Assembly (NCBI GenBank): GCA_036404515.1
Contig: DASWZK010000071.1
Span: forward strand, 10,704-74,703
Source of the DNA: Candidatus Limnocylindrales bacterium
GTDB lineage: Bacteria > Chloroflexota > Limnocylindria > Limnocylindrales > CSP1-4
Direction of reading: 5' to 3'
DNA: 64,000 nucleotides
Shown: piece by piece, positions 24,833 to 27,976 of the stretch
Numbering within the stretch: the stretch's first letter is position 1
Layout of the letters: the number at the start of each line of letters is the position of its first letter
Notes under the pieces: generated by a model
What the model was told of the DNA's origin: nothing
Database searches by the model: none
The model's input: the letters and a program-made list of their open reading frames with translations, nothing else
Translations under genes and position numbers: made by a program

Positions 24833-25888
24833 GTGGACCTTACGACGGTTCGGACGGTCAGTGAGGGCTCTGTCCGAGTTGCCGTCGATGCGATGGGCGG
24901 CGATCACGCTCCTCTGGAAGTGGTCGCCGGCACGCTGTCCTGGGCACGCGCCCATCCGTCCGACACGGTGCTGCTCGTCGGCATCCCCGAGCGGATCAGG
25001 GGGGTCGCCGGCGAACCCATCCCCCCGAATGTCGAGATCGTGGCGGCAAGCCAGGTCGTTGAAATGGACGAGTCGCCTGCGCTGGCCCTCAAGGCCAAGA
25101 AGGATTCGTCGATCATGGTCGCGATGGACCTGATCAATCAAGGTCGGGCCGACGTGCTCGTGACTGCCGGGCATAGCGGCGCCGGAATGGCCGCGGCCGT
25201 CGTCAAGCTCGGCCGACTTCCAGGCGTGGATCGACCGGCCCTGGCGGTCCAGATGGTCACCGAGACGGGCCCGTTCGTCCTGCTCGATATTGGCGCGAAC
25301 ATGGACTCGAGCGGAAACAACCTGTACCAGTTCGCCCACATGGGCTCGCTGTACGCGGAGCGGGTTCTGGGCGTCGACAAACCGCGAATCGCGTTGCTCT
25401 CGATAGGGGAGGAGAAGGGCAAGGGCGACCAGGCCATCCAGCAGGCAACTCAGATGCTCGACCAGGATGGCAGCCTCAACTTCATCGGCAACGTCGAGGG
25501 TCGCGACCTCGTCAAGCACATGGCCGACGTCGTCGTCTGCGATGCCGTGGTCGGCAACGTGACGATGAAGTTCTTCGAGGGGCTGGCGGGGTTCATCTTC
25601 AACCTGTGGCGCAAGGAGTTCGAGCGAGGCATGCGCGGCAAGCTCGCCTACGTCTTAATGCGCCCGGCGATCGGCCGCATCCGCAGGCTCTTCGACTACG
25701 AAAAGATGGGTGCCTCGCCGCTGCTTGGAGTCAACGGCATGGTGCTGATCACACACGGTTCGGCGGAGCGGCGCATGATCGAGTTCGCGGTAGAGGCCGG
25801 TGCGGGGGCGGCCCGTGCCCACATTCCCGATCTCATCGCCGACGCGTTCCGCGGCCGGCCTCGTCACACCGAGCAGAAGGCGCAGTGA
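24833..25888 (+). CDS. plsX: Phosphate acyltransferase PlsX
   Basis: VAVDAMGGDHAP, VTAGHSGA and LLGVNGMVLITHGSA motifs. Confidence 0.9.
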   Translation: MDLTTVRTVSEGSVRVAVDAMGGDHAPLEVVAGTLSWARAHPSDTVLLVGIPERIRGVAGEPIPPNVEIVAASQVVEMDESPALALKAKKDSSIMVAMDLINQGRADVLVTAGHSGAGMAAAVVKLGRLPGVDRPALAVQMVTETGPFVLLDIGANMDSSGNNLYQFAHMGSLYAERVLGVDKPRIALLSIGEEKGKGDQAIQQATQMLDQDGSLNFIGNVEGRDLVKHMADVVVCDAVVGNVTMKFFEGLAGFIFNLWRKEFERGMRGKLAYVLMRPAIGRIRRLFDYEKMGASPLLGVNGMVLITHGSAERRMIEFAVEAGAGAARAHIPDLIADAFRGRPRHTEQKAQ

Positions 25889-25892
25889 TCCG

Positions 25893-26246
25893 ATGAACAT
25901 CTCGCCGGCCGCGCAGTCGGCCTCAGGTCGGAAGCCCGACCCGCTCACCGTAAGCCACTCCGTCATCGTCGAGATGGTGCGGCTTGCCGCGCTCGAAGTT
26001 CCGGGCGTGCTCAAGGTCAGCCACGGCGGGCCGCTGGCCTGGCTCGCCGGCTCGCCCGTGCGGGCCCAGGTCGGCGATGGCCGGGTTTCGGTACGCGTCT
26101 GGGTGGTTGCCCGGCCCGGTCACGCCATCCAGCCGATCGCGGCTCAGATCCGGCAGGCCGTCGCTGCCACCGTGGAGCGGTTGCTCGGCCTCGAACTGGG
26201 CGAGGTCACAGTCGTCGTCGATGGGGTGGGGGGCTGGGGCAAGTGA
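25893..26246 (+). CDS. Asp23/Gls24-family protein (YqhY-like), second paralog
   Basis: [19 protein letters not shown] is an Asp23-type N-terminus. It sits directly upstream of nusB, as yqhY-nusB does in Bacillus. I took the start at ATG 25893, after the plsX stop. Confidence 0.7.
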
Positions 26247-27019
26247 CCCCAGCCGCGAGCTACGCGGGATCGGGCGCACGCCGCGGCCGCGGCAATTCGG
26301 ATGAGGTCAGCTCTCACCGTCTCGGCCGTCGCCTGGCGCTCGCAGCGCTGTTCGAGGCTGAGTTCGGCCAGCGGACCGCGGCCGCGGTCCTGGAGCGACA
26401 TCTGGCCGAAAGCGGGGCCGATGCAGCGACGTCGGACTTCGCCCGCGGGCTCGTCTCTGCCGTCATTGAAGACCGTGAGCAAATCGACGCCGACATCGAG
26501 AGGCTGGCCCCGCAATACCCCGTCGTCCAGCTCGCCCGCATGGACCGGAGTCTGCTGCGTAGCGGCATCGGCGAGGTGCTACACTCCGGCACGCCGTCCC
26601 GGGTGGCGATGGCCGAATGGGTCGAGCTGGCTCGCACATACAGCGGCGAACCTGCCCGGCGTCTGGTCAACGGTGTACTCGGGAGAATTGCTCGCGACTC
26701 TGAAGCCGGTGCGCACCGCGCCCCGGACCCAGGGTCGCGGCAGCCGTCAATCGCAAGCCAAGGAACCCCGAGGAGGGCGTCAGTGGCCACTACCTACGAG
26801 CGACTCAAGAAGATCGTCGTCGAGCAGCTCGGCGTCGACGAGGATGAGGTCAAGCCCGAAGCCTCGTTCGTTGACGATCTGAACGCCGATTCGCTGGACC
26901 TCGTCGAGCTGATCATGAGCCTCGAGGAAGAGTTCGGCACGGAGATCTCCGACGAGGATGCTGAGAAGATCCGGACCGTGCAGGACGCCGTCGACTACAT
27001 CGATGAACACGCGGCCTAG
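26243..27019 (+). CDS. nusB: NusB antitermination factor ORF that continues in frame, without a stop codon, through the acyl carrier protein sequence (NusB-ACP fusion reading frame)
   Basis: aa ~25-152 are NusB-like ([51 protein letters not shown]). A linker of about 28 aa follows, then a complete ACP. There is no stop anywhere in 26243..27016. Confidence 0.7.
26783..27019 (+). CDS. acpP: Acyl carrier protein (internal start inside the nusB reading frame)
   Basis: [49 protein letters not shown] carries the DSLD phosphopantetheine-attachment motif. GTG 26783 is preceded by GAGGAGG (26770-26776) at 6-nt spacing. Confidence 0.8.
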
Positions 27020-27034
27020 TTCGCAACTCGACTG

Positions 27035-27976
27035 ATGCGCCCCGCGGCCGCTCTTGCCGAGCGGCTGGGGCTCCCGTTCCGTGACCTCGATCTGCTGCAG
27101 CAGGCGCTGATCCACAGCAGCTATTTGTACGAGCATCGGGACCTGGCTGCCGGTCACAACGAGCGCCTCGAATTCCTGGGCGACGCGGTCGTAGGCCTGG
27201 CGATAGCGGACGCGCTGTACGGTCGCTACCCCGACGAGAACGAGGGCGTTCTCTCCGCCCGGCGAGCGTCGATCGTGAGCGCCACCGGACTGGCCCGCCT
27301 GGCCAATCGGCTGGGGCTCGGAACGTATCTGCTGCTCGGTGAGGGCGAGGCTCAGCGTGGCGGCCGTCGTCGGCCGGCCTTGCTCGCCTCGGCTTTCGAG
27401 TCGGTTGTCGGCGCCGTCTATCTCGATCTCGGGTATGAAGCGGCCAGCGGTTTCGTGACTGCGACAGCCGCGACCGAGTTGGCGAGCGATCGTCCGATCG
27501 GTGCTCTGAAGAGCCCCAAGAGTCGACTCCAGGAGTATACCCAGCGCCTCTCGGGCGAGAGGCCGCAATACCGCCTGATCGAGGCTGTCGGTCCAGACCA
27601 TGACAAGCTGTTTCGGATTGAAGTGGCGATCGGTGGGCGGGTGATTGGCGTCGGCGAAGGTCACTCGCGCCGCGTGGCCGAGACCGCGGCTGCGGCCCAC
27701 GCGATCGAGGCTCTGCGGGCGGCGTCCGGGGCCACCGCCGACGGTTCTCTCAATGCCTCGGAGCTGGCCGAGTTCCTCGGCACCGATGTCGACGACAACC
27801 CGGAGGACTGGGACGGCCCTGAGACAGTGCCCGACGCCGGCGGCGAGTCCTGGACCGAGTTCGATCTTGAGACGCTCAACCTGGCTCCGGAGGCTAGGGT
27901 CCTCGATGGCGAGGCCGCGCCCGATAACCCACTTTCGTCAGACAGACGCCCGGCCGATGAAGGCGAGTGGCCGTGA
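27035..27976 (+). CDS. rnc: Ribonuclease III with an acidic C-terminal tail of about 75 aa
   Basis: ERLEFLGDAV catalytic signature. dsRBD: PKSRLQEYTQ...GEGHSRRVAETAAAAHAIEAL. The tail is D/E/P-rich. Confidence 0.9.
   Translation: MRPAAALAERLGLPFRDLDLLQQALIHSSYLYEHRDLAAGHNERLEFLGDAVVGLAIADALYGRYPDENEGVLSARRASIVSATGLARLANRLGLGTYLLLGEGEAQRGGRRRPALLASAFESVVGAVYLDLGYEAASGFVTATAATELASDRPIGALKSPKSRLQEYTQRLSGERPQYRLIEAVGPDHDKLFRIEVAIGGRVIGVGEGHSRRVAETAAAAHAIEALRAASGATADGSLNASELAEFLGTDVDDNPEDWDGPETVPDAGGESWTEFDLETLNLAPEARVLDGEAAPDNPLSSDRRPADEGEWP

What the first reader, a model, noticed from the sequence alone, without database searches (positions are those of the whole stretch)
26243..27019. nusB has no stop codon and reads in frame into acpP, which also has its own strong internal SD+GTG
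ORF 26243..27019 contains a full NusB domain (aa ~25-152), a Pro/Ser/Arg linker of ~28 aa, and a full acyl carrier protein with the DSLD attachment serine. Inside the linker, GAGGAGG (26770-26776) sits 6 nt before GTG 26783. That GTG is exactly where a normal 78-aa ACP would begin. The locus should therefore give free ACP from internal initiation, while every ribosome translating nusB would make a NusB-ACP chimera. The locus is also unusual because the fabD/fabG genes normally between plsX and acpP are absent here; an Asp23 paralog and nusB take their place. Either this is a lineage-specific fusion linking a transcription/rRNA antitermination factor to the lipid-synthesis carrier, or a recently lost nusB stop is being tolerated.
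Basis: seen in the sequence. Interest (0 to 1): 0.6.

Follow-up and report, generated by a model that had tools for sequence, protein, structure and literature searches.

The report
Inherited nusB stop loss fuses NusB to ACP
In this uncultured peat-soil Chloroflexota bacterium and three close relatives, the stop codon of the transcription-factor gene nusB mutated to a glutamine codon, so nusB reads straight into the neighbouring acyl carrier protein gene; the fusion is real and inherited, but most likely a tolerated accident of tight gene packing, not a new function.

Summary
ORF 26243..27019 encodes a complete NusB, a disordered linker of about 26 aa and a complete ACP with its DSLD serine. 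GAGGAGG lies 6 nt before the GTG at which ACP starts in relatives.

All 32 non-fusion relatives in a 36-lineage, mostly same-genus tree end nusB with TAA, TGA or TAG at codon 167. Here that codon is CAG (26741-26743). Three related lineages have CAA or CAG. With this genome they form one clade (support 1.0), with plsX dS of 0.30-0.57 within it. So the stop was lost once (T to C) and has been kept across species-level divergence.

It is not an assembly error. Contigs assembled independently from four public runs match the junction exactly, and the identical protein is recorded on 7 further contigs.

nusB is the only copy in the genome and remains under purifying selection. The 13-codon former spacer is in frame, and its SD and GTG are unchanged, so free ACP is probably still made.

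The same fusion arose independently elsewhere in the order (TAG to CAG, twice). It also marks a larger Dehalococcoidia-like clade, and one source annotates such proteins "NusB/acyl carrier protein". No paper on it was found.

Most likely this is a tolerated read-through fusion, of modest interest.

The parts
24833..25888 (+). plsX (context; first gene of the tightly packed string)
   Evidence: Pfam FA_synthesis, E = 4e-96. Same position in relatives L103 and L104.
25893..26246 (+). Asp23-family gene. The likely start is ATG 25893 (117 aa). Its TGA stop overlaps the nusB GTG (GTGA).
   Evidence: Pfam Asp23, 46.5 bits. Called as 117 aa in relatives L103 and L104. Overlap read.
26243..26740 (+). 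nusB proper, codons 1-166. This is the full length of NusB in relatives that keep the stop.
   Evidence: PF01029 covers aa 29-151 and TIGR01951 is passed. It is the only NusB match in the genome. Omega is 0.12-0.33 within the fusion clade. AF2 pLDDT exceeds 90 for aa 21-150.
26741..26743 (+). Former nusB stop codon, now CAG (Gln167)
   Evidence: The homologous codon is TAA, TGA or TAG in 17 of 19 same-genus genomes. It is CAA in G018/L012 and CAG in L103 and L104.
26744..26782 (+). Former nusB-acpP intergenic spacer, 39 nt, now 13 in-frame linker codons
   Evidence: Alignment with relatives. No indel in any of the 4 fusion lineages. Substitutions within the clade are 5 non-synonymous and 1 synonymous, counted by eye. 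AF2 pLDDT is 33-34 in the 161-180 blocks, and aa 155-180 are all below 50.
26770..26776 (+). Shine-Dalgarno GAGGAGG of acpP, now inside the fused ORF (encodes Arg-Arg)
   Evidence: Read. Conserved (GAGGAGG, or CAGGAGG in three genomes) in every same-genus genome readable at the junction, fused or not.
26783..27019 (+). acpP: GTG start, 78 codons, TAG stop. The phosphopantetheine-attachment serine of DSLD is TCG 26891-26893.
   Evidence: PF00550, TIGR00517 and NF002149 are all passed. PDB ACP chains align from their residue 2-3. It is the only ACP of this type in the genome.
27035..27976 (+). rnc (RNase III), 15 nt downstream (context)
   Evidence: Pfam Ribonucleas_3_3, Ribonuclease_3 and dsrm.

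Best explanation
A point mutation destroyed the nusB stop codon in the common ancestor of a small clade of Candidatus Limnocylindrales (Chloroflexota). The change was TAA to CAA, and later CAA to CAG in three of the four lineages.

The 39-nt spacer to acpP happens to be in frame and free of stops. Ribosomes that start at the nusB GTG (26243) therefore read through 13 former intergenic codons and the whole of acpP. The product is a chimera of about 28 kDa: NusB, a flexible linker, then ACP.

The acpP ribosome-binding site (GAGGAGG, 6 nt, GTG) is untouched. Free 78-aa ACP should still be made by independent internal initiation, probably in large excess, and this would supply fatty-acid synthesis.

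The appended ACP hangs on a disordered tether and is tolerated by NusB. The fusion is most likely neutral or nearly so, a by-product of tight operon packing, and not a new regulatory device.

Shown here: the DNA change, its inheritance, its reality in independent assemblies, intact and constrained domains, and a conserved SD and start codon.

Inferred only: that both proteins are actually made, their ratio, and neutrality.
For: 1. The fused ORF and both complete domains are present.
2. A stop sits at the homologous codon in 17 of 19 same-genus genomes, with CAA or CAG only in the fusion lineages.
3. The four fusion lineages (own, L103, L012/G018, L104) form one clade with support 1.000 on an 1850-nt plsX-asp23-nusB tree. 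All 32 other lineages in that tree have the stop.
4. Persistence: plsX dS within the clade is 0.30-0.57. nusB omega is 0.12-0.33, similar to the 0.16-0.28 seen in comparisons involving the two stop-bearing relatives.
5. It is the only nusB and the only acpP in the genome.
6. It is real in DNA:
   - Contigs assembled independently from 4 runs of different samples and studies match with no difference at the junction.
   - The exact protein is on 7 contigs and a one-residue variant on 20. The 90%-identity cluster has 16 members from JGI, ENA, Logan and NCBI.
7. The SD and GTG are identical to those of unfused relatives.
8. The AF2 model shows two well-folded domains joined by a linker at aa 155-180 with pLDDT below 50, and pTM 0.54.
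9. Tolerance is general:
   - Independent TAG-to-CAG fusions occur in L113 and L114.
   - In other genera nusB overruns the acpP start out of frame.
   - A larger Dehalococcoidia-like clade carries fabD-fabG-nusB::acpP and also keeps an AGGAG plus GTG internally.
10. Linker substitutions within the clade are 5 non-synonymous to 1 synonymous, so there is no sign of protein-level constraint on the linker.
Against: - No protein-level, ribosome-profiling or RNA evidence was available.
- Neutrality is not demonstrated. The fusion has survived substantial divergence in four lineages without any frame-breaking indel, whereas sister lineages show 1-nt indels in the same spacer. My rough estimate is that about 0.7 indels would be expected in the clade, so this test has no power.
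- Longer-lived NusB-ACP fusion clades exist elsewhere, which could mean the architecture is useful.
- A 166-aa variant with the stop and a near-identical N-terminus (P0130, one contig) suggests polymorphism, recombination or a chimeric contig. Its DNA could not be retrieved.
- Logan contigs drop rare variants, so a minority stop-bearing allele in these populations is not excluded.
Confidence: 0.72

Rival explanations
1. The fusion is adaptive. Tethering ACP to NusB could physically couple rRNA antitermination and ribosome biogenesis to the state of fatty-acid synthesis through the holo, apo or acyl form of ACP. Alternatively ACP could serve as a docking module.
For: - The fusion is retained in four species-level lineages over plsX dS of up to 0.57 with no frame-breaking indel.
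- It arose independently in L113 and L114.
- A large clade elsewhere in Chloroflexota has 34 protein clusters (at 90% identity) of fused NusB-ACP, spanning 64-100% identity to the query.
- nusB-acpP adjacency is conserved across the order.
Against: - All 32 other lineages in the tree and about 99% of 401 species sampled in the order keep the genes separate.
- Linker residues are not conserved (5 non-synonymous to 1 synonymous change).
- The model shows no domain interface (pTM 0.54, linker pLDDT about 33).
- The internal SD and start are kept everywhere, so the free ACP is what selection visibly preserves.
- A near-identical variant with the stop exists (P0130).
- No literature support was found.
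Confidence: 0.15
2. The chimera is translated but is then cleaved in the disordered linker. The cell would effectively contain ordinary NusB and ACP, and the fusion would have no consequence at the protein level.
For: The 26-aa linker is predicted to be disordered and is rich in Pro, Ser, Arg and Gln. Such linkers are typically accessible to proteases; that last point is general knowledge, not tested here.
Against: No cleavage motif or dedicated protease is evident, and no data bear on it.
Confidence: 0.08
3. The missing stop is a sequencing, assembly or binning artefact.
For: The genome is a fragmented MAG of 167 contigs. Some other apparent fusions sit on assemblies with broken or frameshifted neighbouring genes: G375, G357/L073 and L112.
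Against: - The same junction is assembled independently from 4 runs of different samples and studies, with 0 differences at the junction.
- The exact protein is on 7 contigs and close variants on more than 25.
- Three sister lineages have CAA or CAG at the same codon.
Confidence: 0.02
4. nusB is decaying here, and the read-through is an early step of pseudogenisation.
For: Loss of a stop codon can accompany relaxed selection.
Against: - It is the only nusB in the genome.
- The full-length domain passes the equivalog cut-off.
- Omega is 0.12-0.33 within the fusion clade, similar to comparisons with stop-bearing relatives.
- There are no frameshifts or internal stops.
Confidence: 0.03

Closest known systems
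Separate nusB and acpP genes of same-genus Limnocylindrales (e.g. loci L004, L023, L024)
   Same: Same gene order: plsX-asp23-nusB-acpP-rnc. The combined product is 83-88% identical in the closest of them. The same 39-nt spacer, GAGGAGG and GTG are present.
   Different: They have TAA, TGA or TAG at codon 167 and make a 166-aa NusB. Here that codon is CAG and the ORF continues through acpP.
NusB/ACP fused proteins already in public metagenome catalogues (JGI name 'transcription antitermination factor NusB/acyl carrier protein'), e.g. the fabD-fabG-nusB::acpP-tatA loci L115 and L116 of a Dehalococcoidia-like clade
   Same: Same two-domain architecture. A linker derived from the former spacer. 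An internal AGGAG plus GTG retained before the ACP domain. The DSLD serine intact.
   Different: Only about 40-50% identical to the protein here, judged from representatives of these families (P0142 48%, P0150 41%). Different neighbours (fabD and fabG upstream, tatA downstream). Independent and older origin, and a much larger clade (34 protein clusters at 90% identity).
One ORF giving two proteins by in-frame internal initiation (E. coli IF2 alpha/beta, CheA long/short, ClpB 93/79 kDa; from general knowledge)
   Same: A strong SD and start codon inside a longer ORF should give a long and a short product that share a C-terminus.
   Different: In those cases the arrangement is ancient and both isoforms are known to function. 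Here the long form arose by accidental loss of a stop between two unrelated genes, and neither product has been observed.
RsmB/Sun, the classic NusB-domain fusion (N-terminal NusB-like domain plus 16S rRNA m5C methyltransferase)
   Same: A NusB-fold domain is covalently joined to another module.
   Different: The RsmB models score 20-36 bits against cut-offs of 269-540. There is no methyltransferase domain, and the NusB half here is the true NusB equivalog.
Carrier domains integrated in type I FAS, PKS or NRPS megasynthases
   Same: A PP-binding domain is embedded in a larger polypeptide.
   Different: No catalytic partner domain is in the same chain. The ACP half is a housekeeping type II AcpP equivalog, and the type II fab genes lie elsewhere.

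Membership tests
NusB (TIGR01951 / PF01029) | Full-length match to the family model above the curated cut-off | tested here: met
   PF01029 scores 80.1 bits against 23.1, covering profile positions 4-133 of 133. TIGR01951 scores 94.9 against 88.35.
NusB (TIGR01951 / PF01029) | Housekeeping orthologue: single copy, syntenic, under purifying selection | tested here: met
   One match in the genome. Same position as in relatives. Omega 0.12-0.33.
NusB (TIGR01951 / PF01029) | Binds NusE (S10) and BoxA RNA and supports rrn antitermination | not testable with these tools
   Needs biochemistry or complementation.
Acyl carrier protein AcpP (TIGR00517 / PF00550) | Full-length match above the cut-off | tested here: met
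   TIGR00517 scores 108.4 against 70.45 and NF002149 scores 119.5 against 106. PF00550 scores 57.1 against 20.8. PDB ACPs match with E-values down to 1e-27.
Acyl carrier protein AcpP (TIGR00517 / PF00550) | Conserved DSLD serine for 4'-phosphopantetheine | tested here: met
   The sequence NADSLDLVE is present. The serine is residue 217, TCG at 26891-26893.
Acyl carrier protein AcpP (TIGR00517 / PF00550) | Is phosphopantetheinylated and carries acyl chains | not testable with these tools
   Needs mass spectrometry or an AcpS assay.
Stop-loss read-through gene fusion | Orthologous genes are separate in relatives, with a stop at the homologous codon | tested here: met
   17 of 19 same-genus genomes and all 32 non-fusion lineages in the tree have the stop.
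Stop-loss read-through gene fusion | The downstream gene is in the same frame, with no stop in the spacer | tested here: met
   The 39-nt spacer gives 13 sense codons.
Stop-loss read-through gene fusion | The change is real in the organism's DNA and is inherited | tested here: met
   Independent contigs of 4 runs. Many contigs carry the identical or near-identical protein. The fusion clade is monophyletic.
Stop-loss read-through gene fusion | The chimeric protein is actually produced | not testable with these tools
Dual products from in-frame internal initiation | A conserved SD at proper spacing plus a start codon inside the ORF | tested here: met
   GAGGAGG, 6 nt, then GTG, identical in fused and unfused relatives. 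AGGAG plus GTG is also kept in the older fusion clade.
Dual products from in-frame internal initiation | Both the long and the short product are detected | not testable with these tools
   Needs a western blot, proteomics or ribosome profiling.
RsmB-type NusB-domain fusion | A C-terminal SAM-dependent methyltransferase domain and an RsmB model score above the cut-off | tested here: not met
   RsmB models score 20.6-36.2 bits against cut-offs of 269-540.

The most novel reading that the evidence does not exclude
In several Chloroflexota lineages, including this clade, NusB-ACP is a functional chimera. The tethered carrier domain, in its apo, holo or acylated state, would modulate NusB's role in rRNA antitermination. 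That would link ribosome production directly to lipid-synthesis capacity. The repeated origin and long retention of the fusion would then reflect selection, not tolerance.
Probability: 0.1. Interest if true: 0.7.

Novelty: new member of a known kind. Interest (0 to 1): 0.33.

Why it matters
This is a clean, datable natural example of how a single T-to-C change at a stop codon in a tightly packed operon creates a two-domain protein, while the downstream gene keeps its own translation start.

It shows that an essential-type transcription factor, the only NusB in the genome, can carry an appended domain of roughly 90 residues for a long evolutionary time.

The NusB-ACP combination recurs in Chloroflexota and is catalogued by automatic annotation, but it appears unstudied. 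If it proved functional, it would point to an unknown link between ribosome biogenesis and lipid synthesis.

For annotation, gene callers label the fused ORF either "NusB" or "acyl carrier protein". As a result, acpP can look absent from these genomes.

Tried and rejected
- **Artefact:** rejected on the basis of independent contigs and sister lineages.
- **Pseudogene:** rejected on single copy, intact domain and low omega.
- **Second nusB or acpP copy that would make the fusion irrelevant:** none found in the 90.7%-complete MAG.
- **Promoter or terminator between nusB and acpP:** the consensus scan of 25700-27300 found none. This scan is weak evidence in a high-GC Chloroflexota genome.
- **Indel test for selection on the reading frame in the fusion clade:** no power. 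The estimate of about 0.7 expected events is my own rough calculation from the branch lengths.
- **Other apparent fusions used at first as evidence of recurrence, then downgraded:** G375/P0099, G357/L073, L112/P0005, P0007, P0042 and P0016. Their contigs carry frameshifted nusB or broken neighbouring genes, or (for the last three) the protein sequences themselves look frameshifted on my reading. Only L113 and L114 were kept.
- **DNA of the stop-bearing variant P0130:** not on record.
- **Literature:** no paper on a NusB-ACP fusion among 19 hits. The Limnocylindria papers listed were not opened, and their titles and abstract openings do not concern it.
- **First tree attempt:** timed out. It was repeated on 36 sequences.

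Full report
**1. What is there**

The window carries a co-directional string of genes: rpmF, plsX (24833-25888), an Asp23-family gene (probably ATG 25893 to 26246), one ORF at 26243-27019, rnc (27035-27976) and smc.

The ORF at 26243-27019 has 258 codons.
- Pfam places a complete NusB domain at aa 29-151 and a complete PP-binding domain at aa 186-253.
- NCBIfam equivalog models for both NusB (TIGR01951, 94.9 against 88.35) and housekeeping ACP (TIGR00517, 108.4 against 70.45; NF002149, 119.5 against 106) are passed.
- Solved ACP structures align from their residue 2-3 at query residues 181-183.
- The DSLD serine is residue 217.
- GAGGAGG (26770-26776) lies 6 nt before GTG 26783.

**2. Organism and context**

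The genome is a 2.6-Mb MAG of 167 contigs, 90.7% complete. Related records name the group Candidatus Limnocylindrales, Chloroflexota, and the runs that hold the sequence are peat and soil metagenomes.

This is the only nusB and the only acpP in the assembly. fabD and two ketoacyl synthases lie on contig C113, and a third synthase on C80. So this ACP must serve a dispersed type II system.

The nusB-acpP adjacency is the rule throughout the order, and the full plsX-Asp23-nusB-acpP-rnc order was read in relatives L103 and L104. The absence of fabD and fabG at this locus is a trait of the lineage, not of this genome.

**3. What happened to the stop**

I aligned the junction of 20 same-genus genomes.
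- Of the 19 that are readable, 17 end nusB with TAA, TGA or TAG at the codon homologous to window 26741-26743. That is 13-14 codons before the acpP start.
- In this genome the codon is CAG, and in G018 it is CAA.
- Two further lineages found through the protein cluster (L103, L104) also have CAG.

On a maximum-likelihood tree of the 1850 nt upstream (plsX, asp23 and most of nusB), the four stop-less lineages form one clade with support 1.000. All 32 other lineages carry the stop.

The simplest history is a single T-to-C change (TAA to CAA) in the clade's ancestor, followed by CAA to CAG. The 39-nt spacer happened to be in frame and free of stops. Several sister species have the same in-frame spacer behind their stop, while others differ by 1 nt.

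**4. Is it real?**

Logan contigs assembled independently from four runs match 26500-27100. The runs come from different samples and studies (soil 2014; peat 2018, 2018 and 2020). There are no differences or indels at the junction; the only variants are at 26611, 26638 and 26653.

The exact 258-aa protein is recorded on 7 contigs and a one-residue variant on 20. The 90%-identity cluster has 16 members from JGI, ENA, Logan and NCBI. An artefact is effectively excluded.

Two caveats remain.

**5. Age and constraint**

Within the fusion clade, plsX differs by dS 0.30-0.57, with 86-91% nucleotide identity. These are separate species.

The nusB part has omega 0.12-0.33. Comparisons involving the two stop-bearing relatives give 0.16-0.28, so the range is similar. 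NusB is functional and is not decaying.

The 13 former spacer codons show 5 non-synonymous and 1 synonymous change among the four lineages, with no indel. The linker is not constrained as protein. The SD and GTG are invariant, as in unfused relatives.

**6. Structure**

An AlphaFold2 model built from a 31-sequence alignment shows three parts.
- A confident NusB helical bundle, with pLDDT above 90 for aa 21-150.
- A confident ACP four-helix domain at aa 181-258, with pLDDT about 80.
- A linker at aa 155-180 with pLDDT below 50. Overall pTM is 0.54.

This describes two beads on a flexible string with no predicted interface.

**7. Mechanism proposed**

Every ribosome that starts at the nusB GTG should produce the NusB-linker-ACP chimera. 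That GTG overlaps the Asp23 stop in GTGA.

Ribosomes loading at the strong internal SD should produce ordinary 78-aa ACP, as they do in all relatives. The nusB start is preceded only by a G-run, whereas acpP has a perfect GAGGAGG. I therefore infer that free ACP greatly outnumbers the chimera.

No promoter-like or terminator-like site separates the genes, though that scan is weak evidence here.

The translation products, their ratio and any cleavage of the linker are inferences. No RNA or protein data could be obtained.

**8. Recurrence elsewhere**

Among 401 species sampled from the order, full-length stop-less matches are limited to this genome, G018, G375 and G357. The last two sit on assemblies in which nusB itself is frameshifted, so I do not count them.

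Two short JGI contigs give clean independent cases. In L113 and L114 the stop of their nearest relatives (TAG) is CAG.

In other genera nusB lacks an upstream stop and runs 20-45 codons out of frame into acpP. The 3' end of nusB is therefore evolutionarily loose in this group.

Beyond the order, a search of 1.84 billion representative proteins found about nine 50%-identity clusters of NusB-ACP fusions at 41-51% identity to this protein.
- One family lies in fabD-fabG-nusB::acpP-tatA loci (L115, L116).
- It comprises 34 clusters (at 90% identity) spanning 64-100% identity to the query. Its unfused neighbours are named Dehalococcoidia and Anaerolinea.
- It too keeps an AGGAG plus GTG before the ACP domain.
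- JGI's pipeline names such proteins [quoted passage not shown].

Earlier notes of this scan report similar NusB-ACP and FabD-NusB fusions in other Chloroflexota and in candidate-phyla-radiation bacteria. I treat those notes as leads only. My own results agree with the Chloroflexota one.

No paper describing the fusion was found.

**9. Verdict**

This is a lineage-specific fusion created by a lost stop, real and inherited, and older than "recent".

The best-supported reading is a tolerated read-through fusion, with free ACP still made from its own start (confidence 0.72).

An adaptive role cannot be excluded (about 0.1-0.15). It would be interesting because the same architecture recurs and persists in other Chloroflexota.

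As it stands, this is a new, independently arisen member of an architecture already present, though unstudied, in public catalogues. Interest is modest.

Noticed in passing
window 25800-26246: The longest Asp23 ORF starts at GTG 25800 and overlaps plsX by 89 nt. Relatives call the gene at the ATG equivalent to 25893 (117 aa), 5 nt after the plsX stop. The shorter start is probably the right one.
   Followed up: partly
window 26243-26246: The nusB GTG start overlaps the Asp23 TGA stop (GTGA). This suggests translational coupling of nusB to Asp23, preceded only by a G-run and not by a clear SD.
   Followed up: no
loci L080-L083, L086, L089, L096, L101 (other Limnocylindrales genera): nusB has no stop before the acpP start and reads 20-45 codons out of frame into acpP. 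The result is long overlapping genes and NusB tails of unrelated sequence.
   Followed up: partly
protein P0130 (one JGI contig of 8.8 kb; DNA not retrievable): A 166-aa NusB that is identical over roughly its first 149 residues to the commonest variant of this species (P0122). Its last ~17 residues and its stop resemble those of a different same-genus species (G001-like). This could be recombination, a segregating stop allele or a chimeric contig.
   Followed up: partly
L115 4001-4750 and L116 4001-4759: A separate, larger Chloroflexota clade (neighbours named Dehalococcoidia/Anaerolinea) has yceD-rpmF-fabD-fabG-nusB::acpP-tatA-tatC. It has a conserved NusB-ACP fusion of about 250 aa and a retained internal AGGAG plus GTG. 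There are 34 protein clusters at 90% identity.
   Followed up: partly
G375:C2 (L110) and G357:C6 (L111 = L073): These MAGs show nusB split over two frames in addition to the apparent fusion. The pattern looks like indel errors in these assemblies, so their fusions should not be trusted without reads.
   Followed up: partly
G019 (L020), nusB-acpP junction: The junction is a run of N in the held genome, so this same-genus species could not be scored.
   Followed up: no
G000 contig C113:12550-16536: fabD and two ketoacyl-ACP synthase genes cluster here, and a third KAS is on C80. The type II FAS genes are dispersed away from acpP and plsX in this organism.
   Followed up: no
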